Virus record (IMG/VR): IMGVR_UViG_3300044983_000185
Location: 1 to 43,690 of that record
DNA: 43,690 bases
Strand: one strand, 5' to 3'
Source of the DNA: a virus
Lineage: Duplodnaviria; Caudoviricetes
Shown here in pieces: positions 8,996 through 42,573 of this stretch. The stretch's first letter is position 1; every line of letters begins with the position of its first letter. The notes beneath the pieces are model-generated. The model was not told where the DNA came from. It searched no databases and saw only the letters and a program-made list of their open reading frames with translations. Made by a program: the position numbers and the translations under genes.

Positions 8996-9325
8996 CTACG
9001 ACAGGTAGCGACGGACGTAATGTCGGATCGCCCGCGACGTCTTGCCGAGCCGACGACCGATCTCCTTCTGTAGCAAACCCTGCTCCCGCATGATCGCTAT
9101 CTGCTTGATCAGTGCATGTGTCTCGGGTGAGAGCGGTCGCCCAGGTGGACGCCCGGCGCGCTCATCAGCGATGTAGCGCTGTACGGTGCGCCTGCTGATC
9201 CGCAGTTCGTGCGCAATCTGCCAGGCGTAGTAGCCTCGCCGCCTCAGGTTCATGGCCATCTGCCGCCTGTCGAGCACGGCATCGACGGCGCTGCTCATGT
9301 CGGTGCGGGGCGCCATCAAGATCAC
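8996..9325 (-). CDS. Double helix-turn-helix DNA-binding protein
   Basis: AWQIAHELRISRRTVQRYI and QKEIGRRLGKTSRAIRHYV. Confidence 0.8.
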   Translation of the reverse strand: MILMAPRTDMSSAVDAVLDRRQMAMNLRRRGYYAWQIAHELRISRRTVQRYIADERAGRPPGRPLSPETHALIKQIAIMREQGLLQKEIGRRLGKTSRAIRHYVRRYLS

Positions 9326-9573
9326 CTCCGGAAGATCTCGTCGTGTGGACAGGGCGTGAGACAGGCGTCAAGGACGTACTCCCACGCGGCCGCGAAGATG
9401 ATCGAGCCTCGCCCGCGTTCCGGGCAGTACATGCGCCAGATGCCTTCACGCTTCACGATCCGGTGCTTGCGCCTGTCGACGAGGAACGGCACGTCACGGA
9501 CGTTTTCCCAATTCCAAGTGCGCGGGTCACGACTGGCGTCCAGGTACATGCGCCTTACGAGCCCCTGCTTCAT
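9322..9573 (-). CDS. Hypothetical protein
   Basis: Start/stop overlaps with neighbours on both sides. Confidence 0.65.
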   Translation of the reverse strand: MKQGLVRRMYLDASRDPRTWNWENVRDVPFLVDRRKHRIVKREGIWRMYCPERGRGSIIFAAAWEYVLDACLTPCPHDEIFRR

Positions 9574-10016
9574 CGCACGTTGTTCGTGATGTTGTTGATG
9601 ATCGTCACCGAGCCGGTCCGGCCGGCGGCGAGAAGCGCAACCAGCGCGATGAACGCGAATCCGAGCAACGTCATCAGCGGCAGTGCGGCCAGGGTGGTCA
9701 ACACCCACCAACCGAGCGCGAAGAACGTGCCGATCCCCGCGCCGGCCGCGGCCGTGATGAGTGCCGGGCGGTGCCAGGCCGGCGGCGGTGGCTTGAGCTG
9801 GAGCACGCGCATCTCCCAGTAGCCGCGCTCGGGCGAGAACACCGGGTACGCGTGCAGCGGACGCACCTGGCCACGCTTGGCGAGTTTGCGGACCTGGGCG
9901 ATCAGCTCGTGCCGGTCGTGGTAGTTCGCGGTGAGCGTGAGGATCGGCCGGCGCGGCACGGTGAGGCGTGTGTCGACCACGAGGGCGGAGCGCTTCTTGC
10001 GGACGATCTCGTTCAT
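9570..10016 (-). CDS. Membrane protein, two C-terminal TM segments (Spd-like)
   Basis: Basic N-domain, two hydrophobic helices, VTIINNITNNVR tail. Confidence 0.7.
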   Translation of the reverse strand: MNEIVRKKRSALVVDTRLTVPRRPILTLTANYHDRHELIAQVRKLAKRGQVRPLHAYPVFSPERGYWEMRVLQLKPPPPAWHRPALITAAAGAGIGTFFALGWWVLTTLAALPLMTLLGFAFIALVALLAAGRTGSVTIINNITNNVR

Positions 10017-10223
10017 TTAAAGGTCACCCGTCTGCACGATGCTGACGATGATGTCGATGGCGACGCGATATGAAGCGCCTGCCAGGATGCCGAGGCCAAC
10101 AGTGGCCATGGTCGAAGATTCGCCGACCGCCGCGATCAGGATCATGGTCCCGAGCACGAGTGTGCAGGCGGCGAGCCCCTGGCGAGTGAAGCCGAACCAT
10201 CCGCGAAGCTTCTTGACCTCCAT
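10017..10223 (-). CDS. Small two-TM membrane protein
   Basis: SD AGGAG; two hydrophobic helices. Confidence 0.7.
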   Translation of the reverse strand: MEVKKLRGWFGFTRQGLAACTLVLGTMILIAAVGESSTMATVGLGILAGASYRVAIDIIVSIVQTGDL

Positions 10224-10232
10224 GCCGATCTC

Positions 10233-10712
10233 CTATCGGGTGAACAGCCAGCCGAACAGGCCGGCGAGCATGAGTGCGGTTGACGTGCCGATGACGAGCG
10301 CATCGACGAATCGGCCGCGCCGGGCGTCGGGCAGGCCGCGCATCCGGCGCACGTCGCGGATGGCGCGCTGCACCTTCTGTTCGCGCGGTCGTACCTTGCT
10401 GCGACGCGGGTTCTTCTGATCGTTGTAGCGCGGCCGGGCGATGAAGATGACAATCGTTTCCAGCGTGAGCAGGAACCATTTCCAGCCGAGCCACCACGGC
10501 AACCGCAGCTCGAAGTACGCCGTTTTCAGGTCGTACCAGGGCTTCTCAATGCAGCCCTGGTGATGGCATGTTCCGGCGTGGCAGCGGTACCGGTTCGGCA
10601 GGCTCGTGCTCATCCCGGCGTATCCCCATTCGGTGCCGCGTCGCAGGTGCTTGCGGGTGCGGTAGGCGTAGATGCCGGGCTTGCGCCGGCGCGCCTTACG
10701 AAAGATCACCAT
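10233..10712 (-). CDS. GIY-YIG nuclease-like protein with C-terminal TM anchor
   Basis: GIYAY...GYAG...R...H...E...PRYN pattern; hydrophobic C-terminal helix. Confidence 0.7.
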   Translation of the reverse strand: MVIFRKARRRKPGIYAYRTRKHLRRGTEWGYAGMSTSLPNRYRCHAGTCHHQGCIEKPWYDLKTAYFELRLPWWLGWKWFLLTLETIVIFIARPRYNDQKNPRRSKVRPREQKVQRAIRDVRRMRGLPDARRGRFVDALVIGTSTALMLAGLFGWLFTR

Positions 10713-11050
10713 CGGAATGTCAGCAATCCGGACGGCAACGTGATCGCGTGCTTGCGCTCGCCGGTGTGTCGCCAGTCGAGTTCGCACCGGCCACGCTCGC
10801 CGGGTGCGCCGCAGATGCTCAACGCGCCCGTGGGGGGCGTGGACGGAGCAGGCTCCGTCCACGCCGTCGACAAGCCCGGGTAGGGCGCGGCCGGGCCGCA
10901 GCAGACGGTAGCGAGCGCAGATGTGCCGGTCCGGTCGATGTAGCTGACTGTGGATTCGTACTCCCACGGCAGGGTGACCGGCAACGGTTCGGCGCCGTCT
11001 TCCAGAAGGACTGAGTGCTGATGTGCGTAGCTGTGCCAGTATCGATACAC
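10706..11050 (-). CDS. Hypothetical Cys/His-containing protein
   Basis: SD AGGGGG then GTG at 11050; overlaps the next gene. Confidence 0.55.
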   Translation of the reverse strand: MYRYWHSYAHQHSVLLEDGAEPLPVTLPWEYESTVSYIDRTGTSALATVCCGPAAPYPGLSTAWTEPAPSTPPTGALSICGAPGERGRCELDWRHTGERKHAITLPSGLLTFRW

Positions 11051-11129
11051 GTCAACCCCCTGAAGATCGAAGCCCGGTCGCAGTGCTCGTGCACCACGAC
11101 CGGGGATGGACCTAGTATTGCAGGTCCGG

Positions 11130-11291
11130 CTACGTAATGGCAATACGTAGATGGGGCGGAGTTTCGAAGCCTTCCGGCTCTCGCACCTCGAAACCGAGCC
11201 GGCGTAGTCCTTCTGCCTCCCGGCGCGCACGGCGCACGGTGCGCGCCCACGTGGGGATGCGCGCGTCCCCGAACTTCGTGGGTTTGTCCAT
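11130..11291 (-). CDS. Possible small protein (53 aa)
   Basis: GGAG SD five nt before ATG 11291; lies in a hairpin-rich region and may be spurious. Confidence 0.35.
   Translation of the reverse strand: MDKPTKFGDARIPTWARTVRRARREAEGLRRLGFEVREPEGFETPPHLRIAIT
11132..11148. promoter_or_regulatory. Palindromic operator ACGTA-N7-TACGT, copy 1
   Basis: 15/17 identical to 11346-11362; upstream of the leftward -10 AATACT (11114-11119). Confidence 0.6.
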
Positions 11292-11345
11292 CCGATCTCC
11301 AAACATGCAACTTGCACGGTTTCGTGCCATCGTACTTGACGTATG

Positions 11346-11362
11346 ACGTAATGGGCATACGT
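11346..11362. promoter_or_regulatory. Palindromic operator ACGTA-N7-TACGT, copy 2
   Basis: Just upstream of -10 TAGGGT (11367-11372) of the FtsK-like gene. Confidence 0.6.
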
Positions 11363-11379
11363 GGAGTAGGGTTGATCAG

Positions 11380-13212
11380 GTGCCCCAGAACACCGCACCC
11401 CTGATCAGCTGGCGCGGCGAGCGCGCCGCCGTGCCGCTACCGCTGCGCGTCCTCGGCCGCTACTTCATCACCGGCCAGGCGCTGCACGGCGCAGGCGACA
11501 ACGCGACCTTCCTGCATCGCGCGACGATCGACTACCGCGCGCGCCCATACCTGAAGCTGACCGGACCGAAGTGGCAACGCCTCGCGCGCCGACATGCCGC
11601 CTTCACCGGCCCGGCCACACTCCTGCTGGCCGCGCCGTGGCACGGCCTCCTGCCGCTCGCGATCTACATGGTGGCGCTGGCGGTGGCCGCGGTGGGAGCG
11701 CTCTCCCGCGTTCTGTGGCTGGCCGTGCGCGGCTTCCGGCGCAACCGGCAATGGATCGATCCTGCGGCAAAGGTGGCGTGCTCGATCCTCGGTATCCGGT
11801 ACACGCGCCGCGCCGGCCGCAGAATGATCGACCTCCCGCCCGGATGGGGTGAGGCGCGCGAGGACGGCGCGGCGGTGCGCGAGGTAGTCCGCGTGCACCT
11901 TCCGGCTGGCACGCCGTTGACCAAGTCGATCAAGGTCAACTTCGCTACGAACGTAGGGGGCCGGCTCGGCATCCCGAGCCCGGTCGGAGCGGAATGGTCG
12001 GAGTCCGGCGCTGCGCCGTTCGTCGACCTGGCCGCGGCGCCGGTACCGCCGCGCGTCGTCGACTGGCCGAGTATCGAGCGCGCCGTACGCCAGGCCGACG
12101 ACGAGATCATGATCGCGGGTCGCAACGCCTCCGGCCACCTCGTGGAGGTCAGCCTGGCTGAGGACGCCCCGCACTTCGGGCTGTCCGGTGCGTCCGGCAC
12201 CGGCAAGAGCGTGCTCGCTCGCGTCATGCTCGTACCCCGGGTGGCGTTCCGGGGCGACGGCCTGATCATCACCGACCCGAAGAAGTTCTCGCACTGGCGA
12301 TGGGCCGGCGGCGGCAAGGTGGACTCGCGTCGCATCCGCTATGCCTGGCGCACCGAGGAACTGCACGATGCCTGGCTGGAGATCGCGGCGGAGACGGCGC
12401 GCCGCATCGAGATGGACGAGGAGGATCTTGCGCAGCAGCGCCGGGTGTTCATCCTCGTGGAGGAGATCAACACGCAGACGAAGCGGTTGCAGCGGCACTG
12501 GCGCGCCGAGCGCAAGCGGATCATCGTGGCCGCGAAGCTCAAGCTTGCCGATGACCCGTACGCGGACATCGACCTGGGGGACCTGGATCCGCCCGTCCAG
12601 TCCCCCGCCATCGTGGCCATGCAAGAGGCGGTGGCCATGGGCCGTGAGCTCAAGATGCACGTCTTCGTGTGCGCACAGCGAATGTCCGCGAGCGTGTTCG
12701 GAGGCAACGGCGGTGACATCCGCGAGAGCTTCCAGGGTGGCCGCTTCATCGCGAAGTGGGACAGGAAGCTCTGGAAGATGCTCGTGGACACGCTCGACTA
12801 CGTGGCCTGTCCGTCCGGGCCGCGTGGCATCTGGGGCGTGGCCAGAGGTGACAGCTTTGACATCCTGCGTGTCCCGTTCCTGTCCGAGCCGGCCGCGCTG
12901 AAGCTGGTCACGGACATGGCTGTCCCTGTCCACGGTCCGGTGCTCGGCCAGCAGGCGGACGGCTGGCAGCTGGACATGTCCGTGTCCGGGCCGGCGCTGA
13001 CGTCCGCGGTCACCCTGGCCGCTGCGCTGGACATGTTGCCCGGACAGGACGGTCCGCGCGCGCTCACGCTGGAAGGCCTGCGGACGGCGGCGAAGCGGCC
13101 GGGCTTCCCGGAGCCGCTACCGAAACCGGACGGCGCTGAGTATGGGCGCTCCGAAGCCAGGCTGTACGACCTCGGAGCGCTGCTGGACTGGCGTGAGTCG
13201 GGACTGGCCTAG
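11380..13212 (+). CDS. FtsK/SpoIIIE-family DNA translocase, TraB-like (610 aa)
   Basis: N-terminal TM helices; Walker A GASGTGKS; Walker B ILVEE; GRELKMHVFVCAQR; C-terminal HTH-like segment. Confidence 0.85.
   Translation: MPQNTAPLISWRGERAAVPLPLRVLGRYFITGQALHGAGDNATFLHRATIDYRARPYLKLTGPKWQRLARRHAAFTGPATLLLAAPWHGLLPLAIYMVALAVAAVGALSRVLWLAVRGFRRNRQWIDPAAKVACSILGIRYTRRAGRRMIDLPPGWGEAREDGAAVREVVRVHLPAGTPLTKSIKVNFATNVGGRLGIPSPVGAEWSESGAAPFVDLAAAPVPPRVVDWPSIERAVRQADDEIMIAGRNASGHLVEVSLAEDAPHFGLSGASGTGKSVLARVMLVPRVAFRGDGLIITDPKKFSHWRWAGGGKVDSRRIRYAWRTEELHDAWLEIAAETARRIEMDEEDLAQQRRVFILVEEINTQTKRLQRHWRAERKRIIVAAKLKLADDPYADIDLGDLDPPVQSPAIVAMQEAVAMGRELKMHVFVCAQRMSASVFGGNGGDIRESFQGGRFIAKWDRKLWKMLVDTLDYVACPSGPRGIWGVARGDSFDILRVPFLSEPAALKLVTDMAVPVHGPVLGQQADGWQLDMSVSGPALTSAVTLAAALDMLPGQDGPRALTLEGLRTAAKRPGFPEPLPKPDGAEYGRSEARLYDLGALLDWRESGLA
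12759..13046. repeat. Cluster of 13 GGACA/TGTCC motifs in the 3' part of the FtsK-like gene
   Basis: Hand count. Confidence 0.75.
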
Positions 13213-13469
13213 ATGACTTCGGTGACGCTGCGGGGGAAGTAGGCGCGACCGGACGGAACGGGGCGGAAGCGCTCGGTCTCGCGGATCTCGCGCCAGAGCT
13301 CGCCACGGGTGATGACCGTTCCCGACGGCATCACCGTGTAGATCTCGGCGTCGCGCTCGGCGTCCATCTCCAGAGCCACACCGTGGAGGATGTCCATGAT
13401 CGTTGTCTGGCCGGTGGCAACGGCGATGTGCTCGGCGGTGGTGAGTTCGCGTCCCAGTTCGTTCGTCAT
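13209..13469 (-). CDS. Hypothetical protein, leaderless
   Basis: TTGACG-N17-TATACT-N6-ATG. Confidence 0.75.
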   Translation of the reverse strand: MTNELGRELTTAEHIAVATGQTTIMDILHGVALEMDAERDAEIYTVMPSGTVITRGELWREIRETERFRPVPSGRAYFPRSVTEVI

Positions 13470-13475
13470 GAACCC

Positions 13476-13504
13476 AGTATAGCAAGCCCACTTCGAGCCG
13501 TCAA
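13476..13504 (-). promoter_or_regulatory. Sigma70/HrdB-type promoter
   Basis: TTGACG-N17-TATACT. Confidence 0.8.
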
Positions 13505-13628
13505 CCTGGCACTGACCTAGGCCACCGGAGGGGTGTATGCGCTGGTGAAGCGCTGTCCGGCCGGTCGCCTAGGTCAGGGTCGGATAGGCTGGGCGAGCTT
13601 GAGGAAAGTCCGCGCGTGGGGCGCAAAG

Positions 13629-13661
13629 CAAAAGCCCGGACCATCATGGTCCGGGCTTTTG
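13629..13661. terminator. Bidirectional terminator-like hairpin
   Basis: CAAAAGCCCGGACCAT-C-ATGGTCCGGGCTTTTG perfect inverted repeat. Confidence 0.75.
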
Positions 13662-13713
13662 TGACCTTTAGCAAGGCCGTGGCCCGGGGCACAAGGCCAC
13701 GGGCCAAGATTTT

Positions 13714-13965
13714 TTAGACCGCGGTATAGAACGCCTGGTTACGCAGGGTCTGGCCTGCGTAGGGAGTGCCGATGGGGGCGATGAAGTCGCCGTAGCGGAC
13801 TGCGAGGATGTCGGCCCGAACCAGCGCCCGCAGGCTGTTGAGGTTGGCGCCCGCGGTGCGAGCGGTGTACTCGCTGATCTCGTTGTTCTCCGCGGTCAGC
13901 ATGAGCGGGAGGACCTTGAACAGGGTGGCCGTCTGGGTGCTGGTCAGGTTCTCCGTCTTCATCAT
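13714..13965 (-). CDS. Hypothetical protein, leaderless
   Basis: ggccttgcTATACT-N6-ATG. Confidence 0.75.
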   Translation of the reverse strand: MMKTENLTSTQTATLFKVLPLMLTAENNEISEYTARTAGANLNSLRALVRADILAVRYGDFIAPIGTPYAGQTLRNQAFYTAV

Positions 13966-13999
13966 GGATCAAGTATAGCAAGGCCGTGGAGACAGGCGC

Positions 14000-14030
14000 A
14001 AGGCCCCGGATCAAAATCTTCCGGGGCCTT
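14000..14030. terminator. Hairpin downstream of the DUF2637-like gene
   Basis: AAGGCCCCGGA/TCCGGGGCCTT. Confidence 0.6.
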
Positions 14031-14062
14031 AGCATGCACTTGCTAAGGCAAGTAAAGAAAGT

Positions 14063-14911
14063 TCACTCTCGCCCGGCGCCGGACACTGGCGTGTCCGTGA
14101 CCGTGGCCAGCCAGCGGCGCGCCGTCCGCGTGGACACGCCGAAGTGCGCGGCGGACAGCTGCACCATGTCCGCGCGGGACAGGGCGGACGGGTCCCACGC
14201 CGCTGCCATGTCCGCGAACTCCTGAGGGACGGACGTCCCAGGCGCTGTCCGTGTCCGCCTCGGCAACGGCGCGGACAGCGTGGACAGGTGCGCCTGCGCC
14301 TCGTCCGCGAGTTGCTTGCCGACCGTGGACAGCGCGTCCTCGTAGCCCTGTGTCCACGCGTCCAGATCGCTGGCCGGCCGCGTGACAGTGATGTCCGTGT
14401 CTGCACCGGCGGACAGGTCGAGTCGGACAGGATCCGTGTCCGGCGCCGTGAGGCTGTTGAGGCGCATCTGCGCTTCGTCTGGCGTCATGGCCGGACGCGT
14501 GACATGTCCGCGGACACGCGTGGACAGAATCAGGCCGGTGGCCATGATGGCCATACCGTCGATGGCCAGAGGGCCGAGGAAGCTGACCGCGGTCAGTTGT
14601 CCACGGCTGTGCATGAGGTCGTGCAGGTGTGTCCAGCTGACCACCATGGCCATGCCTCCGACGGCCAGGCAGCCGAGCCAGCGCCAGGCCTGGAACATCC
14701 GCGCGGACGACCACCGCGGACTGACGAACATCTCGATCGCCAGCAGCACGAGGATCGGCCAGCCTGCGGCCATCACCTTGTCGAGCGTGTCCACGGCCGC
14801 GCCGCGGGTGCGGTAGGTGTCCGCGAGGTTGCCGGCCACGCTCAAGCCGGCGCCCACGAGCAGGGACACGTACGCGACCGCGCCTGTCCAGAGCTTTCCG
14901 ATCTTGGTCAT
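14063..14911 (-). CDS. DUF2637/SpdA-like membrane protein with C-terminal HTH
   Basis: Four TM helices with SVAGN, AGWP, VSWTHL and GPLAIDG motifs; C-terminal AHFGVSTRTARRWL. Confidence 0.8.
   Translation of the reverse strand: MTKIGKLWTGAVAYVSLLVGAGLSVAGNLADTYRTRGAAVDTLDKVMAAGWPILVLLAIEMFVSPRWSSARMFQAWRWLGCLAVGGMAMVVSWTHLHDLMHSRGQLTAVSFLGPLAIDGMAIMATGLILSTRVRGHVTRPAMTPDEAQMRLNSLTAPDTDPVRLDLSAGADTDITVTRPASDLDAWTQGYEDALSTVGKQLADEAQAHLSTLSAPLPRRTRTAPGTSVPQEFADMAAAWDPSALSRADMVQLSAAHFGVSTRTARRWLATVTDTPVSGAGRE
14081..14889. repeat. Cluster of 26 GGACA/TGTCC motifs inside the DUF2637-like gene
   Basis: Hand count; 20 of them within 14081-14526. Confidence 0.85.
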
Positions 14912-33573: not shown

Positions 33574-34902
33574 GTGCAGGTCCTTGATCACACCGTCGAA
33601 CTCCGCGGCGCCGCCCTGGAACTCGCCAACAGCCGCGCGTCCGAGATCCTCATCTCCGGCGCCGCCGGCACCGGCAAAAGCCGAGGCGTCCTGGAGAAGA
33701 TCAATCTCGTGTGCCTGCTCACCCGCGGCGTCAAATGCCTGATCCTTCGCCGCACCGCGCGCAGCCTGGCTACATCCGCGCTGCGTACGTGGGAGCGTGA
33801 CGTCGTGCGCGAAGCCATGCGCGACGGCAGCGTGTGGTTCTACGGAGGCTCGGCCAGGGAGCCGGCGCAGTACCGCTACAGCAACGGCAGCGCGGTCGTC
33901 ATCGGCGGACTCGATGACCCGATGAAGGTGATGAGCACCGAGTACGATATCGCCTTTATCCAGGAATGTACCGAGGTCAGCGAGGACGACTGGGAGTCCG
34001 TCAGCATCCGCCTGCGTAACGGCGCCATCTCCTTCCAGCAGATCATCGGCGACTGCAACCCCGGTCACCCCACACACTGGCTGCTCGAACGCGCCGCGAC
34101 CGGCAAGCTCCTGCACCTGGTCAGCCAGCACGAGGACAACCCGCGGTACTTCACGATCGACGGCACGCCCACCGCGGAAGGCGTCGACTACATCGCCCGG
34201 CTCGACTCGCTCACCGGTGTGCGCTACCTGCGGCTACGCAAGAACCAGTGGGCAGCAGCGGAAGGCGTGATCTTCGAGAGCTTCGACGCGGCCATCCACG
34301 TCATCGACCGCTTCGACATCCCCGACGACTGGGAACGCGTGTGGGGCATCGACTTCGGCCACACCAACCCATTCGTCTGGCAGGACTGGGCGATCGACGA
34401 GGATGGCCGCGCTTACCTCGTCCGCGAGATCTACATGTCCGGCCGCATCGTCGAAGACCACGCCCGGCAGATCCTCGACCTGTGCACCGACGGCAACGGA
34501 GAATGGATCGTGCCGCGCCCGTCCGCGATCGTCTGCGATCACGATGCGGAGGACCGGGCCACGTTCGAGCGGCACATCGGTATGGGCACCGTGCCTGCGG
34601 ACAAGGCGGTCCTGCCCGGCATCGACGCCATGGAGGCGCGGCTACGCGTTGCGGGTGACGGCCGGCCGCGGATGTTCTTCTTCAAGGACGCGCTCATCGA
34701 GCGTGACCCGCTGATGGTGGAGCAGAAGAAGCCGACGCGCACCGTCGAAGAGATACCCGCCTATATCTGGGCGCCCGAGCCGCCGTCCGCGGACCGCAAG
34801 GACCAGAAACCGCTGAAGCGGAATGACCATGGATGCGACACAGCACGCTATATTTCCGTGGAAATAGATCTGCACGGACCGACGACGGTGAGGTGGGGAT
34901 GA
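33574..34902 (+). CDS. terL: Terminase large subunit
   Basis: GAAGTGKS, FIQE, DCNP, GIDFG, NDHGCD motifs; CATACT-N6-GTG. Confidence 0.95.
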   Translation: MQVLDHTVELRGAALELANSRASEILISGAAGTGKSRGVLEKINLVCLLTRGVKCLILRRTARSLATSALRTWERDVVREAMRDGSVWFYGGSAREPAQYRYSNGSAVVIGGLDDPMKVMSTEYDIAFIQECTEVSEDDWESVSIRLRNGAISFQQIIGDCNPGHPTHWLLERAATGKLLHLVSQHEDNPRYFTIDGTPTAEGVDYIARLDSLTGVRYLRLRKNQWAAAEGVIFESFDAAIHVIDRFDIPDDWERVWGIDFGHTNPFVWQDWAIDEDGRAYLVREIYMSGRIVEDHARQILDLCTDGNGEWIVPRPSAIVCDHDAEDRATFERHIGMGTVPADKAVLPGIDAMEARLRVAGDGRPRMFFFKDALIERDPLMVEQKKPTRTVEEIPAYIWAPEPPSADRKDQKPLKRNDHGCDTARYISVEIDLHGPTTVRWG

Positions 34903-35159
34903 CCAGCCTGACCCTGGCATGGTCCACGGCGCGCGCCCGCCGCGCCGCCCGGCCGAAGCGCACGCCGCTACTACTGCTGTTCGTCGCGTGGCTCGCCCGG
35001 CGCCTGCCCAGCTTCAAGCGCGCGCGCACCGCGGTCATGCAGTGGTCCGCGTTCACGGCTGGCACCGTCGCGCTATGGGGTGTCGACTGGCGCGCGGGAC
35101 TGGCCGGAGTGTTCGTGTCGCTGCTCGTGCTCGAAGCGCTGGGCGGGGCAGAGCGGTGA
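34899..35159 (+). CDS. Small membrane protein
   Basis: Coupled; hydrophobic. Confidence 0.65.
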   Translation: MTSLTLAWSTARARRAARPKRTPLLLLFVAWLARRLPSFKRARTAVMQWSAFTAGTVALWGVDWRAGLAGVFVSLLVLEALGGAER

Positions 35160-35341
35160 AGCTGATTCGGTACGAGACCGGACGCGTGCACGGACTCTGG
35201 TTCGGAGCAACTGCGGAAACCGGGGTATGGCGCAGCAGCAAACCGCGCAGGCGCATGCTCTGGCGCGACCACGATTCGCTGTTCGTGGCTCTCGGTCGCT
35301 GGCGGATGCGGATCATGAAACCGAGGAGGCCGCGTGCGTAG
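35156..35341 (+). CDS. Hypothetical protein
   Basis: Coupled; supplies the SD for the portal gene. Confidence 0.55.
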   Translation: MKLIRYETGRVHGLWFGATAETGVWRSSKPRRRMLWRDHDSLFVALGRWRMRIMKPRRPRA

Positions 35342-36626
35342 CCTCCTCGGCCCCCTGCTCGCGAAGACGCCCGCACCGTTCGCGTCCTACCGCGGGGAAC
35401 GTGCCTACGCCGCGCAGGGGCGCGGCCGGGTGCCGGCGGCGCAGCAGATGGAGGCGATGGGCGCGTCCGCCGCCCTGTTCGCGATCACCAGTCGCACGAG
35501 CACGGCGACGGCCAAGCAGCCGTGGCACATGCACCGGCGCTCCCCGGGCTCGTCCTGTACGTACGACTCGGGCAGCGAGTACGCCTGCGACGGCCAGGAT
35601 GTCGAGCTCGTGCAGAAGCACCCGGCGCTGTCCGTACTGAACCGGCCGAACCCGTTCTACACGCGCACCGAACTCGTGGAGAGCGCGCAGCAGCACGTCG
35701 ACCTGACCGGCGAGGGCTGGCTGATGGTCGGCCGGATCGGGAAGCTACCGGCTGAACTGTGGGTGGCCAGGCCGGATAGGATCATCGTCGTCACCGACCT
35801 GGACGAGTTCCTGTTGGGCTACATCTACTGCTCGCCGTCCGGGCGTGAGGTGCCGTTGCGCACCGACCAGGTTCTGAGCATGCGCATGCCCGCGCCACTC
35901 GACCCGTACCGCGGCATGGGCTCCGTACAGACGATCATGGCGCAGGTGACCGGCGCGCAGTACTCCGCAGAGTGGAACGCGAACTTCTTCCGCAACGGCG
36001 CCCGGCCGGGCGGCATCGTCAAGCTCTCCCGGCGCATGAACGACAAGGAGTTCGAGCGCCTTGTCGAGCGGTTCAACATTGCGCACCGGGGCGTCGCCAA
36101 CGCCGGGCGCACTGCCTTCCTCGAAGAGGGCGACTGGGTTGACGTCAAGCCCATGAGCCTCGCGGACATGCAGTACGTCGAGACCGCCAACCTCAACCGC
36201 GACACAATCCTGCTCGCGTTCGGTGCCAGCAAATTCGACGTAGGCGTACTGGAAGACGTCAACCGGGCGTCCGCGCTCAGCGCGCACGCGGACTTCGGTT
36301 CCCGGATGACCGTGCCGCGGCTGGACCGCTGGGCGGGGATGTTCAACAACGACTTCCTGCCGATGTTCGGGCCGGCGCTCGGCGACACCGACGTGTATGA
36401 ACTGGTCTACTCCTCGCCAGTGCCCGCGGACAGGCAGCAGAACCGCGACGACAAGGTGGCGTCCGCGAACGTGTACGCCACGCTGGTCAACGCGCGGGTC
36501 AGCCCGGAGAGCGCGGCGGAGGTGGCAGGCCTGCCTCCGATGACGATCGCGCCCGAGCCGGCGCCGCAACCGCAGCTTCCCGCGGCGCCGGCCGGTGATC
36601 CGCAGAGTGAGCCGGTTCCGGCATGA
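35334..36626 (+). CDS. Portal protein (HK97-like)
   Basis: LNRPNPF, YRGMGS, FFRNGARPGGIV motifs. Confidence 0.93.
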   Translation: MRSLLGPLLAKTPAPFASYRGERAYAAQGRGRVPAAQQMEAMGASAALFAITSRTSTATAKQPWHMHRRSPGSSCTYDSGSEYACDGQDVELVQKHPALSVLNRPNPFYTRTELVESAQQHVDLTGEGWLMVGRIGKLPAELWVARPDRIIVVTDLDEFLLGYIYCSPSGREVPLRTDQVLSMRMPAPLDPYRGMGSVQTIMAQVTGAQYSAEWNANFFRNGARPGGIVKLSRRMNDKEFERLVERFNIAHRGVANAGRTAFLEEGDWVDVKPMSLADMQYVETANLNRDTILLAFGASKFDVGVLEDVNRASALSAHADFGSRMTVPRLDRWAGMFNNDFLPMFGPALGDTDVYELVYSSPVPADRQQNRDDKVASANVYATLVNARVSPESAAEVAGLPPMTIAPEPAPQPQLPAAPAGDPQSEPVPA

Positions 36627-37669
36627 GCGCCGAGCCGGAAGCGGCCGGCCGCAACGCGCGCCGCTGGACGGTCAAGGCGCACATCGACGACAACGTGTGC
36701 CAGCCGTGCGAGGACAATGACGGCAAGGTGTACCGCAACCGGAAAGCCGCATGGCGCGATTACCCGAACGGCCGTGGTTACCGCAAGTGCGTCGGTGCAC
36801 AATACGGCAATACGTGCAGATGCACAGTCGTTCGGCGAGGCAAGGATGGGACCAACATGGGGCAGGATCTAGCCTCGCTGATCAACAAGGCGATGACGCT
36901 CACCAGCACCATCGAGGCACGCAAGCTGCTGCCCACCGTGCCGGTCAACGGCCTCGCCCTGCCCGACCTGACCGGCCTGCGCGCGCAGGACAACGCGCTG
37001 TACGTCTACGACGCGATCGGCGGATGGGACGGCGCGAAAGCGATCGACGTCGCCATGGCGCTGCGGGACATGACCGGGCCGCTCGACGTGCACCTCAACT
37101 CCCCCGGCGGAGTGATCTTCGAGGGCGCGGCGATGTACAACGCGATCAAGGCGTACGGCCGCACCAACACCGTCACCTGCTACATCGACGGCTACGCCGC
37201 GAGTGCGGCAAGCTTCGTCGCCCTGGCCGCGTCCCCGTACGATTCGGTCGCGGACACCGGTGGCGTCCGTATCGCGGCCAACGGCGCGATGATGATCCAC
37301 GACGGCATGGGCATCGCGATGGGCACCGCCGACGACATGCGTGACGTCGCGGACCTGCTCGACATGCTGTCCGACACGATCGCGGAGATCTACGCCAACC
37401 GCACCGGAACGCCGGCGGCCGAGTGGCGCGACATCATGCGCGATGGTGACACGTGGTACAACGCCGCTGCAGCGCTGGACGCGAAGCTCGTGGACGTCGT
37501 CATCCCCGACGGCGAATCCGATGACGATCCCGAGCCGGCCCCTGAGCCGGGCAACACCCTCGACCTCGACCTGTTTACGGTCGACACGCCGGTCGCGCCG
37601 GCGGCAACTGCCCAACCTCCCTTCGATCTCGAAGGAATCCGCATCGCACTGAAGGGAGTGTTGGCGTGA
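36623..37669 (+). CDS. Clp-type head maturation protease with Cys-rich N-terminal extension
   Basis: LNSPGG, AASAAS, MMIHD, DTWY motifs. Confidence 0.9.
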   Translation: MSAEPEAAGRNARRWTVKAHIDDNVCQPCEDNDGKVYRNRKAAWRDYPNGRGYRKCVGAQYGNTCRCTVVRRGKDGTNMGQDLASLINKAMTLTSTIEARKLLPTVPVNGLALPDLTGLRAQDNALYVYDAIGGWDGAKAIDVAMALRDMTGPLDVHLNSPGGVIFEGAAMYNAIKAYGRTNTVTCYIDGYAASAASFVALAASPYDSVADTGGVRIAANGAMMIHDGMGIAMGTADDMRDVADLLDMLSDTIAEIYANRTGTPAAEWRDIMRDGDTWYNAAAALDAKLVDVVIPDGESDDDPEPAPEPGNTLDLDLFTVDTPVAPAATAQPPFDLEGIRIALKGVLA

Positions 37670-39042
37670 CCGTCGACACCGCAAAGCCCACCAACCCGGC
37701 CCAGTGGGAGGAGTACGTCAATACGACACTCGCCTCCCCGGAGGCGTTCAAGAAGGCGTACGAAGACGGCAGCTTCCTGGAGAACCTGAAGGCTTACCAG
37801 GGCGCCACCAACAAGACGATGACCGACCTCAAGGCGCAGCTCACCGAGCAGGTCTCGGCCAGTGTGCTGGAGATGTTCAAGCGCAACGGCCTGGAGACGG
37901 ACATCGTCAACGGCCGGCCTGACACGCGGCCGGTCAACCGGCGGTACGAGGACGCCGGTGTCGCCTACAACAAGTACGCGCCCGGCGTCGCCGTCGAGAA
38001 GATCTGGAACTCCGCGGGCCAGATGCTTCAGGACATCGTCACGAAGCGACCCGGCGCCGAAGCCGCCGCGCGGCTGAACAAGTACGACGACCTGACCAAC
38101 GCGTACAGCTCGAACGTGCCCAGCACCGGCGGCTACCTGATCCCGGAGGACGTCCGCTCGGAGATCATGACGCGTGCGCTGGAAGGCGCGGTCATGCGCC
38201 CGTACGCGCAGGTCGTGCCGATGCCGTCCGGCAAGTTCTCCTGGCCGGTCACCGACTTCACCACCGAGGTCGGCGAGGTCTACGGCGGCATCGTCATGAG
38301 CTGGCTCGACGAGGGTCAGACGTTCACGCCCACCGAGGCGACGTTCGCGAAGGTCGCGCTCCAGTCCCACAAGCTGGGCGGTCTCGCCCGCATCCCGAAC
38401 GAGCTCGTGCGTCACATCGCCGCGCTCGAAGCGTGGTGCCGCACGAACATGCCGAACGCGATCAAGCACTTCGAAGACGTCGGCTTCCTGTCCGGTGACG
38501 GTGTGAAGAAGCCGCTCGGCGCGCTGCACGCGAGCAACCCGGCCATGATCGTTGCCACCGCGGAGACCGGCCAGCCCGCCGCCACCATCACGTGGATCAA
38601 CGTGCTCGCGATGCTGTCACGGCTGCTGCCCGAGTCGTGGGACAGCGCAGCGTGGATCATCACCCCGGACGCGCTCCCGGAGATCTACACCATGGCGCTG
38701 CCCGTCGGCACCGGCGGCAGCGCGACCATGAGCGGCGAGGGCCGCGGCCCGGACCCGCTCCCGCAGTCCCTGGCCGGCATCCCGATCGTGTGGTCGCGCA
38801 AGACCCCGGGCATCCTCGGCACGCAGGGTGACATTTCGCTGATCGACCGCAGCAAGTACGTGATCGGTGACACCTCGGGCGTCATGCTCGACACCTCCGA
38901 GCACTCCGCGTTCACGAGCGATCAGACCGACTTCCGGATCATCCTGGAAGTCGACGGCCAGCCCGGCATGCTGTCGCCGCTCACCCCCGCCAACAACGGC
39001 CCCACCCTCTCCGCGTTCGTCCAGCTGGCGACGCGCAGCTAA
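37666..39042 (+). CDS. Major capsid protein (HK97 fold)
   Basis: GGYLIPE, FLSGDGVKKPLG; follows the protease. Confidence 0.93.
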   Translation: MTVDTAKPTNPAQWEEYVNTTLASPEAFKKAYEDGSFLENLKAYQGATNKTMTDLKAQLTEQVSASVLEMFKRNGLETDIVNGRPDTRPVNRRYEDAGVAYNKYAPGVAVEKIWNSAGQMLQDIVTKRPGAEAAARLNKYDDLTNAYSSNVPSTGGYLIPEDVRSEIMTRALEGAVMRPYAQVVPMPSGKFSWPVTDFTTEVGEVYGGIVMSWLDEGQTFTPTEATFAKVALQSHKLGGLARIPNELVRHIAALEAWCRTNMPNAIKHFEDVGFLSGDGVKKPLGALHASNPAMIVATAETGQPAATITWINVLAMLSRLLPESWDSAAWIITPDALPEIYTMALPVGTGGSATMSGEGRGPDPLPQSLAGIPIVWSRKTPGILGTQGDISLIDRSKYVIGDTSGVMLDTSEHSAFTSDQTDFRIILEVDGQPGMLSPLTPANNGPTLSAFVQLATRS

Positions 39043-39111
39043 CAGATCTACGCCGGTGAGCCAGGACATCGCGTCCTGGCCTACTGGCGGAACTCCCAAG
39101 GAAGGGGAGAG

Positions 39112-39675
39112 ATGACCACAGGAACCGGTGAGGCACTCGGCCGGCTTTTCGACCTCGGCACCGGATGGGCGCCCGTCGACCTCGACACGTCCAACGGCGC
39201 CACCGGCAAGCGCGTCAGCCTCGCGCTCGCCAACTACCTGACGTACATCGTGATGACCGGAACCGGCGGCGCCGAGGATCTGACCCTGGATCTTCAGATG
39301 CACACCGCGTACACGTCCGGCACGAGCGCGGACATGGACGCGTCCGGCGCCGCGACGGCTACTGGCGTGGACCACTACTACATCAAGGCCGAAACCGCGC
39401 TCGACAATGACGAGTCGTGGGTGAAGGTCACGCAGTCCGCGGCCAGTGAGGCAGTCGTGGTTGGCGCGACGTACGGCGCGATGCAGAAGCTGATCGTGAT
39501 CGAGATCCACGCGGCGATGCTGGCCGACACGTACACCCACGCGTCGCTGAACGCCGCGATCACCACGAGCACCGCACAGCTGTCCAGCTGCCTGTACCTG
39601 CTCCACGGGCTGCGCTACCCGCGCAAGCCGACCAACCTCCCGAACCTCCTGCGGCCCGGGGCGGCGAACGCCTGA
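39112..39675 (+). CDS. Virion structural protein (possible decoration protein)
   Basis: Strong SD; directly after the capsid gene; beta-rich. Confidence 0.65.
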   Translation: MTTGTGEALGRLFDLGTGWAPVDLDTSNGATGKRVSLALANYLTYIVMTGTGGAEDLTLDLQMHTAYTSGTSADMDASGAATATGVDHYYIKAETALDNDESWVKVTQSAASEAVVVGATYGAMQKLIVIEIHAAMLADTYTHASLNAAITTSTAQLSSCLYLLHGLRYPRKPTNLPNLLRPGAANA

Positions 39676-40139
39676 TGACTGTCGTCAACGAAGCGGACGC
39701 CTACCGCAAGTCGGTGCTCGGCGCCGGCCCGGTCAGCAAGGCGTATGCCACCCTCGTCGTCGAGACGAAGACGCTGTTCACGGTGTCCGGCCTCTGCGTC
39801 GTCACGAGCCTTTTCGGCGTGGTAACGACGGCCATCACCGTGGCCAACACGGTGAAGCTCCAGGCCAACCCGACGACCGGGACCACGCAGGACCTGTGCG
39901 CGGCCACGGACATCGGCACCACGGACACGCCGGCCGGCAACATTCTGACCATCGCGGGCGCCGCGGCGACGTCCATCGTGTCCGGCATCGGCGCCGCGCC
40001 GATGTTCGCGACCATGGACAAGCTTGTCATCGCGGCCGGCACCATCGAGCAGGTCACGGCTACCGGCGCGGACGGCGGCATCACGTGGTACCTCACGTAC
40101 GTGCCGATCGCGTCGGGCGCAACCATCGTCGCTGCCTGA
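39675..40139 (+). CDS. Virion structural protein
   Basis: Thr/Ala-rich; coupled. Confidence 0.65.
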   Translation: MTVVNEADAYRKSVLGAGPVSKAYATLVVETKTLFTVSGLCVVTSLFGVVTTAITVANTVKLQANPTTGTTQDLCAATDIGTTDTPAGNILTIAGAAATSIVSGIGAAPMFATMDKLVIAAGTIEQVTATGADGGITWYLTYVPIASGATIVAA

Positions 40140-40148
40140 TGATGGACA

Positions 40149-40188
40149 GACACCCCCTGCAGGCCTGATCTCACCTGCAGGGGGTGTC
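40149..40188. terminator. 15-bp hairpin after the head genes
   Basis: GACACCCCCTGCAGG/CCTGCAGGGGGTGTC. Confidence 0.6.
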
Positions 40189-40206
40189 CACCAGAAAGGA
40201 GCGATC

Positions 40207-40482
40207 ATGGACATGACGCAAGCGGACTACGCCGAGCGGCTCAAGCGGGCCGTCGCCGGCAGCGCCGGCGACGAGGACCGGCGCCTGATCAAGCTGTACG
40301 AGAAGGAGGGTTTCTCGTGGGATGGTCCCAGCTCGGAGCCATCTACGCCGGGAACGCCCGAGAGTACGAGCACGAGCAGACCCGCACCCCGGTCGAATGC
40401 CCGGTCGACAAGTACCCGCTCGAACAAGGGCCGGTCGAAGGACAACTCCACTGCAAGTTCGGCGGAGAACTCTACGACCTGA
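40207..40482 (+). CDS. Hypothetical protein with Ser/Thr-rich tail
   Basis: SD AAAGGAG. Confidence 0.6.
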   Translation: MDMTQADYAERLKRAVAGSAGDEDRRLIKLYEKEGFSWDGPSSEPSTPGTPESTSTSRPAPRSNARSTSTRSNKGRSKDNSTASSAENSTT

Positions 40483-40505
40483 GCGGTCGGCCGATCTTTG
40501 ACTGA
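40317..40505 (+). CDS. Small putative Zn-binding protein overlapping the previous ORF
   Basis: SD AAGGAGG; CPVD...LHCKF. Confidence 0.6.
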   Translation: MGWSQLGAIYAGNAREYEHEQTRTPVECPVDKYPLEQGPVEGQLHCKFGGELYDLSGRPIFD

Positions 40506-40529
40506 GCCTGTCGCGGCTATGATCAGCGC

Positions 40530-40643
40530 GAGACCGGAGTGTTGAGGCCGTCGGGCGGGTGAACCCGGCGTTGCCATGGGCGCACGCGACAGGGCATCAC
40601 CAGTCCTGTCGAAGCGGAGGTTCAAGCCCTCCCGGTGTCACCA
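40530..40643 (+). ncRNA. tRNA-like RNA with encoded CCA (114 nt)
   Basis: GAGACCG/CGGTGTC-A-CCA; T arm GGAGG-TTCAAGC-CCTCC; -10 TATGAT six nt upstream. Confidence 0.7.
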
Positions 40644-40685
40644 CAACTTCAGATCTTCACTTCCTCGCAGAAAGCAGCCGAGGCT

Positions 40686-41723
40686 ATGGCCAGACCGTGT
40701 TATGTCACACGGGACCGGGTGCAATACACCCTGGACCAGGCGGATGTCTTCCGCTCGAACAAGCGCATCGACGACGCCATCGCCTCGGCCAGTGACGATC
40801 TCGAAGGTCTACTCAACCGGTATTTCTATCCCACGCTCGCGACGCGCTACCCGGATCCGTGGCGCCAGGTCCGCGGCGGCATTCTCTGGCTGGACAGCAA
40901 CGTCTACGAGATGGCGTCCGTGTCCACGCTCGTCGTGGACAGCGTGACATGGACAGTGAACACCGACTTCTACCTCGATCCGGAGGACGGCCCTCCGTAC
41001 ACGTCCATCCGGATCCCGCGGACATCGTCGCGGTCATGGCCGTCCGACGAGCGCAGCATCGTGGTCACCGGCCAGGTCGGCGCGTCCGCGCGGACAAAGG
41101 CGGCCGGCACGCTGTCCGCGTCCATGAACACGAGCGTGACAACGATGACCGTGTCCGACGCGTCCATGGTCGGTGTCGGTGACCTTGTCACGCTGGACAG
41201 TGAACGTGTCATCGTGACGGACAAGGCGCTGACCACGACCGGCACCACGATCACCGCGGACATGACCGGCCTGTCCAGCGGGACATCGGTCACGGTCGCG
41301 TCCGGCACCGCTGTCCACGCCGGCGAATACATCGTCATCGACAGCGAGCGGATCTTCGTCGAACAGGTCAACGGCAACACGCTGACCGTGAAGCGCGGCG
41401 CGCAGTCCAGTGCCCTGGCCGTGCACACTTCCGGCGCTACGGTGTACGCGCCGCGCGTCTGCACGGTCGAACGCGCGTGCACTGGCACGACCGCAGCGAG
41501 TCACAACAGCGCGATCACGCTGTACGTCAACGATCCGCCGGCGCTCGTGCAGGAGGCCGGTCTCGCGCTCGCGTTGAACAACCTGGAGCAGGGCAAGAAC
41601 GCGTACGCCCGCACGACCGGCACCGGGGAGATGCAGCAGGAGGCGACCGGCCGCGGCGTGAAGCAGATCGTGGAGGACTGCATCGCCCGGCACGGACGTG
41701 TCCGGATCGGCGCGACGTCATGA
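40686..41723 (+). CDS. Head-tail adaptor with inserted beta-repeat domains
   Basis: Position; IASASDDLEGLLNRYF; repeated DSERV/DSERI units. Confidence 0.75.
   Translation: MARPCYVTRDRVQYTLDQADVFRSNKRIDDAIASASDDLEGLLNRYFYPTLATRYPDPWRQVRGGILWLDSNVYEMASVSTLVVDSVTWTVNTDFYLDPEDGPPYTSIRIPRTSSRSWPSDERSIVVTGQVGASARTKAAGTLSASMNTSVTTMTVSDASMVGVGDLVTLDSERVIVTDKALTTTGTTITADMTGLSSGTSVTVASGTAVHAGEYIVIDSERIFVEQVNGNTLTVKRGAQSSALAVHTSGATVYAPRVCTVERACTGTTAASHNSAITLYVNDPPALVQEAGLALALNNLEQGKNAYARTTGTGEMQQEATGRGVKQIVEDCIARHGRVRIGATS
40892..41316. repeat. Cluster of 14 GGACA/TGTCC motifs inside the adaptor gene
   Basis: Hand count. Confidence 0.7.
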
Positions 41724-42106
41724 CGTCCACGGTCACCATCCACGGGCCGCTGTTCGACGGCCAGGCGCGCGGCATCATCTCGGACATGTGCGACGACATC
41801 GCGGAAGCAGTTGCCGACGACGGCCGCGAACTCGTGCTGATCAACCTGAACGATTCGCTGCAGACCCAGACGCCCTACTACACCACCATGATCGACATCC
41901 ACCCGGACGACGGCCCGCACAGCATGGCCGCCGGTGACAACGGTGTGGTCTACGGGCCGTGGCTGGAAGGAATCGGCAGCCGCAACGCACCCGTCACGCG
42001 GTTCAAGGGCTACGCGAGTTTCCGCCGCGCTGCGCAGGGGCTGGAGCAGACTGCCGGCGCCACCGCGCAGCGCGTCGCCGAGCCCTACATTGCGAGGCTC
42101 GGATGA
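41720..42106 (+). CDS. Neck/tail completion protein
   Basis: VYGPWLEG...FKGY motif; position. Confidence 0.7.
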   Translation: MTSTVTIHGPLFDGQARGIISDMCDDIAEAVADDGRELVLINLNDSLQTQTPYYTTMIDIHPDDGPHSMAAGDNGVVYGPWLEGIGSRNAPVTRFKGYASFRRAAQGLEQTAGATAQRVAEPYIARLG

Positions 42107-42564
42107 CTCTGCTTCAGGACCGCGTGAACGCGATCATCGACCGGGTGGTCAGTCCTGGCATGGCGTCCGGGCTGTTCGACTCCGTGCCGCAGGCCGAGCC
42201 GATGAGTGCACCGTATGACACGATGTACGCCGTTTTCGTGGCAGGGATCGGGCCGGCGCGCTCCGGGCTGGACATGACGAGTGTGAAGATCACGCTGACC
42301 GGTCGCATCCACAAGCGGGCGCTCGCCTACCCGCGGGACCTGATCGATCCGTGGCTGCTCACCGCGACGGCCACCATGATGGCCGCCTACAGCGAAGACT
42401 TCGAGCTGGGCGGCGAGGCGCGCATGGTCGACCTGCTGGGCGCGAACAACGGCGGCGCACTGGCAGGCCGCGCCGGGCACATCACGATCGACAAGACCCT
42501 GTTCAGGATCATGGACATCACGATCCCGATCATCGTCAACGACGCCTTCACCCAGGCACCGTAA
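42103..42564 (+). CDS. Tail terminator-like protein
   Basis: Position and size. Confidence 0.65.
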   Translation: MTLLQDRVNAIIDRVVSPGMASGLFDSVPQAEPMSAPYDTMYAVFVAGIGPARSGLDMTSVKITLTGRIHKRALAYPRDLIDPWLLTATATMMAAYSEDFELGGEARMVDLLGANNGGALAGRAGHITIDKTLFRIMDITIPIIVNDAFTQAP

Positions 42565-42573
42565 GGAGCAGCG

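What the first reader, a model, noticed from the sequence alone, without database searches (positions are those of the whole stretch)
8996..14911. Tailed phage carrying a plasmid-type DNA transfer and spread module
Seen: a membrane-anchored FtsK/SpoIIIE ATPase with HTH-like tail, divergent from an operon of small TM proteins, a TM-anchored GIY-YIG protein and a double-HTH protein, next to a DUF2637-like TM+HTH protein. Known: Streptomyces plasmids and AICEs move dsDNA with a single FtsK-like TraB plus Spd membrane proteins that spread DNA through the mycelium. Inference: this phage, which has a full virion and lysis set, may also move unpackaged genomes across septa or between hyphae, a virion-independent second route of infection.
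Basis: partly seen in the sequence, partly recalled or inferred. Interest (0 to 1): 0.88.

Follow-up and report, generated by a model that had tools for sequence, protein, structure and literature searches.

The report
Phage DNA pump with nuclease partner
A large group of uncultured soil phages that likely infect filamentous bacteria keep a plasmid-related DNA-pump gene together with a nuclease gene and a membrane protein gene studded with short DNA repeats, a set that likely lets them push their genome into neighbouring cells without making virus particles, though this is untested.

Summary
The genes are real and not an assembly chimera. The window is a complete 43.7-kb tailed phage, likely infecting Micromonosporaceae. 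No integrase, serine recombinase or ParA was found in 15 records searched.

Three genes form the conserved core: an FtsK-fold ATPase, a 159-aa GIY-YIG nuclease with a hydrophobic tail, and a DUF2637 membrane-HTH protein. The double-HTH gene is accessory.

The ATPase groups with pRL2-11-type plasmid ATPases, apart from characterised TraB proteins.
- The nuclease is coupled to the pump. It lies beside it in 24 of 26 loci, is fused to it in 14 of 276 family proteins, and both are missing from one relative.
- Dense YGGMCA arrays lie inside the DUF2637 and ATPase genes in 10 of 10 core genomes. The variant follows the DUF2637 gene, not the ATPase clade.

Best reading (0.45, untested): a tether, cut and pump machine moves phage DNA across cross-walls. 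The theme is known (pZL12; SpdB2 in phiC31), and this scan noted TraB/DUF2637 phage modules on other DNA eight times. One word search of the scan's notes found no pump-plus-nuclease form. Verdict: new variant of a known kind.

The parts
11380..13212 (+). FtsK/TcpA-fold ATPase of the pRL2-11 type: N-terminal hydrophobic helix, motor domains, small C-terminal helical domain (DNA binding inferred). Core.
   Evidence: Fold search; model; 168 homologues, many on 40-46 kb contigs; plasmid hits 25-30% identity; tree; 47-60% identity in 9 of 9 core relatives
10233..10712 (-). GIY-YIG nuclease, 159 aa, with C-terminal hydrophobic helix (membrane anchor predicted). Core.
   Evidence: Fold matches I-TevI, UvrC, EndoII; catalytic-type residues invariant; 9 of 9 core relatives; fused to the ATPase in 14 of 276 proteins
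14063..14911 (-). DUF2637 membrane protein with variable linker and C-terminal HTH-like segment; predicted DNA-to-membrane tether. Core.
   Evidence: Pfam PF10935 E 2e-7; alignment; 8 of 9 core relatives by tblastn, the ninth seen
14080..14890 (.). Dense array of YGGMCA sites (mostly CGGACA/TGGACA here), both orientations, inside the DUF2637 gene; candidate cis site
   Evidence: 21 GGACA in 600 bp, log10 p -14, strongest 5-mer cluster in the window; 35 observed vs 10.5 expected from synonymous shuffles, z 10
12800..13050 (.). Second YGGMCA array in the 3' part of the ATPase gene
   Evidence: 11 GGACA sites listed; last 600 bp 17 observed vs 4.5 expected, z 7
9570..10016 (-). 148-aa protein with C-terminal hydrophobic hairpin; semi-conserved partner downstream of the nuclease
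   Evidence: 5 of 9 core relatives; hydropathy
11130..11330 (-). Small basic protein divergent from the ATPase; regulator by position only (inferred)
   Evidence: 6 of 9 core relatives, 41-51% identity; no informative family hit
8996..9325 (-). Double-HTH protein; accessory, not part of the conserved module
   Evidence: HTH_23 E 3e-10; 0 of 12 relatives; partly deleted in a strain variant
10017..10223 (-). 68-aa two-helix membrane protein; accessory
   Evidence: Hydropathy; 0 of 12 relatives

Best explanation
The three conserved genes likely encode a membrane machine that moves unpackaged phage DNA across cross-walls into neighbouring compartments of a mycelial host: the DUF2637 protein is predicted to tether the genome through the short repeat arrays, the nuclease is predicted to cut it, and the FtsK-type ATPase would pump it through. 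Shown here: the folds, the gene linkage, the ATPase-nuclease fusions, the repeat arrays and their co-variation with the DUF2637 gene. Inferred: HTH binding to the arrays, membrane location, nuclease activity and its purpose (giving replicating circular or concatemeric DNA a free end, or releasing DNA caught in the septum), direction of pumping, and productive infection of the receiving compartment.
For: FtsK/TcpA motor fold. Named relatives are actinomycete plasmid ATPases (51 plasmid records), in transfer-type neighbourhoods: DUF2637 upstream, conjugal transfer and ATP-binding genes downstream in pFRL3, MobF relaxase nearby. Host likely mycelial: 3 of the 4 endolysin hits that name an organism are Actinoplanes or Micromonospora. 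Module kept while head genes are exchanged (terminase match in 4 of 10 complete relatives). Nuclease coupling: ATPase beside it in 24 of 26 loci, fused in 14 of 276 proteins, both absent from record G020, which keeps DUF2637. Arrays in 10 of 10 core genomes; array variant in the ATPase gene follows that in the DUF2637 gene across ATPase clades (rho 0.72, n 25). Precedents: TraB/Spd spreading and SpdB2 in actinophages; clt partly inside traA; SpdA2 binding a site in its own gene.
Against: No experiment. The ATPase does not group with tested TraB proteins, and I found no functional test of pRL2-11 (listing only). The arrays are palindromic or in both orientations and unphased, unlike the direct repeats of TraB clt sites. 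They follow DUF2637, not the pump, so pump recognition of them is not indicated. Similarity of this DUF2637 protein to SpdB2 was not detected. One relative rated complete lacks ATPase and nuclease, G012 has the three genes but no arrays, and Dagobah has only a soluble ATPase core. The motif is also mildly over-represented in other genes (helicase z up to 6.6). The host is inferred from one gene.
Confidence: 0.45

Rival explanations
1. The module segregates an extrachromosomal carrier-state genome into branches or spores, replacing integrase and ParAB; the nuclease resolves multimers or septum-trapped DNA.
For: No tyrosine integrase, serine recombinase or ParA in 15 of 15 records. SpdA2 with its in-gene site affects plasmid stability, not spread. 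Bacillus temperate phages carry FtsK plus a replication-relaxation gene after the lysis genes, presumed to act in segregation. Non-directional arrays suit a tether.
Against: No evidence of a carrier state: no clear repressor found. The ATPase profile found one GTDB match, a 1.2-kb contig, so no prophage or plasmid form in a host genome was seen. Restriction-site depletion fits a mobile lytic lifestyle.
Confidence: 0.25
2. ATPase and nuclease form a membrane-bound DNA shredder, like HerA-NurA, that destroys host or competitor DNA, with the DUF2637-bound arrays holding or marking the phage's own DNA.
For: ATPase-nuclease fusions with intact catalytic motifs and joint absence in G020. HerA-nuclease complexes appear lower in the fold search. 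Weak PADLOC hit to mad8 over the ATPase region (E 2e-6).
Against: The fold is far closer to TcpA/FtsK than to HerA (E 1e-12 vs 1e-4). Plasmid members sit in transfer-type loci with no GIY-YIG hit in pPR2 or pRL2. Local arrays would protect little of a 44-kb genome.
Confidence: 0.17
3. The module organises phage replication or packaging at the membrane within one compartment, with no DNA leaving the cell.
For: All three core proteins have hydrophobic segments; the module lies next to early replication genes; the motif is mildly enriched genome-wide.
Against: Each inspected genome group has its own terminase-type packaging where tested; a relative lacks the pump; plasmid homologues have no packaging to organise.
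Confidence: 0.1

Closest known systems
pRL2-11-type ATPases of actinomycete linear plasmids (pRL2, pPR2, pFRL3) with upstream DUF2637
   Same: Same ATPase subfamily (25-30% identity, profile E 1e-57), similar C-terminal domain, DUF2637 neighbour; the pRL2 DUF2637 gene also holds a CGGACA cluster (11 copies, log10 p -8.8).
   Different: Plasmids, no virion genes; genes co-oriented rather than convergent; no GIY-YIG hit in pPR2 or pRL2; I found no functional test of these ATPases.
TraB/Spd conjugation and intramycelial spreading (pSVH1, pIJ101, pJV1, pWTY27)
   Same: Single FtsK-like membrane ATPase with C-terminal DNA-binding domain, multi-TM partner, short repeats within or beside the genes (PMC4447253, PMC3583192 passages).
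   Different: ATPase on a separate branch; arrays non-directional and linked to the DUF2637 gene; a dedicated nuclease, which those passages do not describe; no GntR-type TraR found.
Streptomyces plasmid-phage pZL12 / phage ZL12
   Same: Tailed-phage genes plus an FtsK-like transfer gene in one replicon (record); plasmid-phages that conjugate and make virions are stated in PMC4170104.
   Different: 90 kb with ParAB and an integrase/recombinase; its ATPase has no hit with this family's profile and no YGGMCA array. This clade is about 42-46 kb with neither ParA nor integrase.
SpdB2 homologues in phiC31 and VWB
   Same: Multi-TM plasmid-type protein in an actinophage, suggested in print to assist spreading of phage DNA.
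   Different: No pump or nuclease partner annotated in the phiC31 half inspected; temperate, integrating phages; no detectable similarity of phiC31 gp25 to this DUF2637 profile.
Streptomyces phage Dagobah (MT711977)
   Same: Closest cultured phage by major capsid protein (39%); carries an ATPase core of the same family.
   Different: Its ATPase is 309 aa without the N-terminal membrane part; no GIY-YIG partner, no hit with this clade's DUF2637 profile and no arrays; 'FtsK' does not occur in the describing paper.
FtsK plus replication-relaxation pair of Bacillus phages (268TH007, RBClin15)
   Same: FtsK ATPase with a presumed DNA-cutting partner right after the lysis genes.
   Different: Unrelated partner protein, distant ATPase, temperate phages of unicellular hosts; function presumed, not tested.

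Membership tests
FtsK/SpoIIIE ATPase superfamily | FtsK-type motor fold with Walker A/B | tested here: met
   Foldseek E 5e-13 to TcpA, 6e-12 to FtsK motor; GASGTGKS and hhhhEE
TraB/Spd system | ATPase groups with characterised TraB proteins | tested here: not met
   Phage and pRL2-11-type rows form one side (85/83) apart from pIJ101, pJV1 and pZL12 Tra, which are long branches; pSVH1 TraB was not available
TraB/Spd system | N-terminal membrane anchor and C-terminal DNA-binding domain on the ATPase | tested here: inconclusive
   One strong hydrophobic stretch; folded C-terminal domain with only sub-threshold HTH_17/MerR leads
TraB/Spd system | clt of oriented direct repeats read by the ATPase | tested here: inconclusive
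   Arrays exist but are bidirectional, unphased and follow the DUF2637 gene rather than the ATPase clade; binding not testable
TraB/Spd system | SpdB2 homologue | tested here: inconclusive
   DUF2637 passes the Pfam cut-off; the clade profile did not detect pJV1 SpdB2-like, pIJ101 SpdB or phiC31 gp25, but it also missed the pRL2 and pPR2 DUF2637 proteins, so it lacks reach
TraB/Spd system | Transfers dsDNA between hyphae or compartments | not testable with these tools
   Needs a cultured phage-host pair
GIY-YIG nuclease superfamily | Fold and Y-Y-R-E-N catalytic set | tested here: met
   Top six structural matches include I-TevI, UvrC, EndoII and Eco29kI, best Z 7.4 (middling alone); residues invariant in 15 rows; weak Pfam GIY-YIG hits in 3 of 6 members scanned
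Plasmid-phage (pZL12 type) | ParA/ParB partition genes | tested here: not met
   ParA family PF13614 in 0 of 15 records, control 14 of 14; ParB not searched separately, none in the window's scans
AICE or integrating temperate phage | Tyrosine or serine integrase | tested here: not met
   0 of 15 records for PF00589 and PF07508; 11 of them at least 90% complete
HerA-nuclease or defence-type ATPase systems | HerA-type ATPase with a nuclease partner | tested here: inconclusive
   Nuclease partner present, but HerA matches are far weaker than FtsK/TcpA; one weak PADLOC hit

The most novel reading that the evidence does not exclude
A widespread clade of non-integrating soil phages infects its mycelial hosts cell to cell without virions, using a dedicated translocase-nuclease that cuts replicating phage DNA and pumps it through cross-walls, guided by a membrane tether that reads a changeable sequence code written inside its own gene.
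Probability: 0.3. Interest if true: 0.9.

Novelty: new variant of a known kind. Interest (0 to 1): 0.66.

Why it matters
Streptomyces contains phage infection by developing transiently resistant mycelium at the plaque edge (PMC10117723 passages). A lytic phage that passes DNA through cross-walls would bypass adsorption and such surface resistance. The printed suggestion that actinophage membrane proteins help spread phage DNA has, in what I could read, no test. This clade gives named parts, a candidate cis site, catalytic residues to mutate and a natural loss variant, so the question becomes directly testable once a member is cultured. A translocase with a coupled GIY-YIG nuclease would also be a new arrangement among FtsK-type pumps, whichever rival is right.

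Tried and rejected
Assembly chimera: rejected.
244-aa nuclease ORF: rejected.
Double-HTH as part of the module: rejected.
Amino-acid composition as the cause of the arrays: not sufficient, since sites exceed synonymous-codon shuffles 2.2-3.9-fold and occur in all three frames.
Helical phasing: none seen; spacing follows the codon frame.
ATPase C-terminal domain as the array reader: not favoured.
DUF2637 searches in phage and plasmid records gave no match; these are low-power blanks.
A DUF2637-anchored locus search could not run.
No prophage in GTDB beyond one 1.2-kb contig, and actinomycete genomes could not be searched by lineage, so the host rests on the endolysin.
No RNA holder listed.
No NCBIfam family for the core proteins.
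Complex prediction for ATPase plus nuclease was not available, so there is no verdict on binding.
The pZL12 paper and one TraB review were not held; pSVH1, pWTY27 and SCP2 records were not found under the accessions tried.
Tree caveats: 9 of 47 rows had no Walker A match and were dropped, pPR2 among them; pRL2-11 was cut from a wrong motif and so lacks part of the motor; no clade test was run.
Full report
THE WINDOW. It is a complete virus record with direct terminal repeats. It encodes terminase, portal, Clp protease, capsid, tail, endolysin and holin genes, two helicases, an exonuclease, a primase-polymerase and a methylase. Tyrosine integrase, serine recombinase and ParA profiles found nothing in 15 of 15 records, this one included; 11 are at least 90% complete. 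The host is not given. Of the 120 best endolysin hits, four name an organism: Actinoplanes twice, Micromonospora once and an Arthrobacter MAG once. A mycelial Micromonosporaceae host is therefore likely but rests on one gene. Near-identical DNA occurs in four soil or rhizosphere runs, one possibly the source.

CHECK OF THE OBSERVATION. The ATPase (11380-13212) is only a weak Pfam match. Its model (pLDDT 86) matches the conjugation coupling protein TcpA and FtsK motors at E 5e-13 to 1e-10, and HerA complexes only at about 1e-4. It has one strong hydrophobic stretch and a small folded C-terminal domain whose HTH_17/MerR resemblance stays a lead. DUF2637 passes the Pfam cut-off. The nuclease gene is 10233-10712. 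Its model's best matches are GIY-YIG nucleases at middling Z (7.4, 7.1), and the Y, Y, R, E, N positions are invariant in 15 of 15 rows; that these are the catalytic set is recalled knowledge. Contigs from other studies bridge the lysis-to-nuclease and ATPase-to-DUF2637 borders, though none spans everything.

WHAT IS CONSERVED. The ATPase has 168 homologues, many on 40-46 kb contigs, and its nearest Atlas clusters are mostly viral. In nine complete core relatives the ATPase (47-60%) and nuclease (35-57%) are present in 9 of 9, DUF2637 in 8 of 9 by tblastn and in the ninth by inspection, the 11130 gene in 6 and the 9570 gene in 5. The double-HTH and two small genes match none of 12 relatives. 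Anchoring on the nuclease, 24 of 26 loci hold the ATPase; the other two end at the nuclease. The DUF2637 profile hit 20 of 26; the profiles were partly built from these loci. Anchoring on the exonuclease gave 26 loci. I searched 14 of them whole, the other 12 being records already known to carry the ATPase: 10 of 14 had it, 10 of 11 among those at least 90% complete. Of the seven records new to this search, three of four complete ones had it and three fragments did not. That anchor was itself built from module-bearing phages, so this is not an unbiased frequency.

RELATION TO PLASMID PUMPS. The ATPase matches 51 plasmid records, 44 from Streptomyces, many annotated pRL2-11, at 25-30% identity. 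DUF2637 is annotated just upstream in pPR2, pRL2 and pFRL3, and not in three other loci inspected. In a 38-row tree the phage and pRL2-11-type rows lie on one side of a branch with moderate support (85/83), apart from Tra of pIJ101, pJV1 and pZL12 and from E. coli FtsK. Those reference rows are long branches, nine rows were dropped, and the root is for drawing only. So this is the pRL2-11 subfamily, not TraB proper, and the direction of exchange is not shown.

THE NUCLEASE IS COUPLED TO THE PUMP. In L018 the GIY-YIG domain is the C-terminal part of a 726-aa ATPase reading frame with no internal stop. Among 275 other proteins scanned, 13 more have such a C-terminal domain at domain E below 0.01, with the Y-x-G, R, E and P-x-Y-N motifs. 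The genomic context of those 13 is unknown. Record G020, rated complete but only 35.9 kb and without end repeats, lacks both ATPase and nuclease yet keeps DUF2637 and its array. Fusion and joint absence indicate one functional unit.

THE REPEAT ARRAYS. GGACA is the most clustered 5-mer in the window, inside the DUF2637 gene, with a second cluster in the ATPase 3' end. In 10 of 10 core genomes GG(A/C)CA reaches 43-87 per kb in DUF2637 and 32-80 per kb at the ATPase end, against 7-17 elsewhere (palindromic sites count twice throughout). The distant G012 shows none and G010 a weak excess. Pooled over 19 loci, TGGCCA is 15-fold, TGGACA 8-fold and CGGACA about 4-fold enriched, without helical phasing. 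Synonymous-codon shuffles give z 4.7-10.3 for DUF2637 and 2.7-7.9 for the ATPase end; control genes also run high in places, the helicase up to 6.6. The share of CGGACA in the ATPase gene follows that in the DUF2637 gene (Spearman 0.72, n 25). The window and three relatives share an HTH of the 'RADMV' type; they and a fourth relative whose HTH was not printed prefer CGGACA in both genes, although the window has the core ATPase and those four the swapped one. L100 has the swapped ATPase, the other HTH type and TGGCCA. The rows are related, however, and the window shares its replication genes with those relatives, so another phage or host factor could be responsible.

MECHANISM. I commit to tether, cut and pump across cross-walls (0.45). 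A ring pump needs a threadable substrate; linear plasmids have ends, whereas replicating phage DNA may need a cut, which would explain why the phage form has a nuclease and pRL2 and pPR2 show none. That step is inference. Segregation of a carrier-state genome (0.25) uses the same parts. A DNA-destroying machine (0.17) fits the fusions equally well but fits the plasmid contexts less well. Nothing here shows movement of DNA.

WHAT IS KNOWN. [quoted passage not shown] PMC4170104 (passages) mentions plasmid-phages that conjugate and form virions, and shows SpdA2 binding a site within its own gene. PMC3583192 (passages) describes clt repeats and cites pZL12 transfer. PMC11526630 (one passage) covers the Bacillus FtsK operon. 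PMC7650747, PMC4487206, PMC3218068 and PMC10117723 were read as passages. The pZL12 paper itself was not held; I saw its record. No supplements were read. Searches for DUF2637, phage with TraB, phage FtsK, actinophage spreading and GIY-YIG with FtsK listed no paper that, by title or abstract start, describes this clade or the ATPase-nuclease pair; the library lacks most subscription papers. This scan's notes hold eight TraB/DUF2637 phage modules on other DNA, none by sequence likeness to this ATPase and none under the nuclease words tried; these are unchecked notes.

VERDICT. A real, inherited module. The pump-nuclease coupling, the in-gene arrays that change with the tether gene, and the setting in phages with neither integrase nor ParA make it a new variant with clear tests. 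Interest 0.66.

Noticed in passing
window 13478, 13974, 15447, 17773, 23188, 23242, 25186, 29203, 29448, 32830: A recurring promoter-like motif, (C/T)TGCTATAGT or TATAC variants, a few bases upstream of an ATG, suggesting leaderless early transcripts; CTATAG is the top over-represented hexamer in 7 of 13 genomes.
   Followed up: partly
L094:4281-5489 and L087:666-1781: Plasmid membrane-protein genes have their own in-gene word clusters: CGGAAC (21 copies) upstream of a pRL2-11-type ATPase, and GCTCAC (16 copies) in the pJV1 gene. In-gene arrays may be general for this protein type; codon effects were not controlled here.
   Followed up: partly
L062, L065, L066, L068, L076, L077, L081, L083: A distant ATPase variant fills the same slot between the same nuclease and DUF2637 genes; in several the second array lies in the 5' part of the ATPase gene. 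The window's closest exonuclease relatives (66-70%) carry this variant.
   Followed up: yes
window 33574-39042: The head module (terminase, portal, Clp protease, capsid) matches only 4 of 9 core relatives, so head genes have been exchanged while replication and pump genes stayed.
   Followed up: partly
L012:2547-3476 (Dagobah gene 87): A cultured Streptomyces phage carries a 309-aa ATPase core of this family without the membrane part, annotated as hypothetical: an easy first test object.
   Followed up: partly
window 10706-11050 (-): A possible 114-aa gene whose stop overlaps the nuclease start codon; no Pfam hit; conservation not tested.
   Followed up: no
window 11330-11379: The short spacer between the ATPase and the divergent small gene holds repeated ACGT words and a possible -35/-10 pair just before the GTG start (read); candidate operator.
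   Followed up: no
L006:12100-12978 and L011:5312-6145: DUF2637 linkers have grown by tandem copies of motif-bearing units (14-aa and 6-aa repeats).
   Followed up: partly
whole genomes G000-G012: CTGCAG, GAGCTC and GGATCC are depleted or absent in many relatives, as in Dagobah and pRL2, consistent with restriction avoidance.
   Followed up: no
window 39000-43000; G007 about 35 kb; G009 about 40 kb; G002 helicase: Weaker extra GG(A/C)CA clusters occur in structural or helicase genes in some genomes; unexplained.
   Followed up: partly
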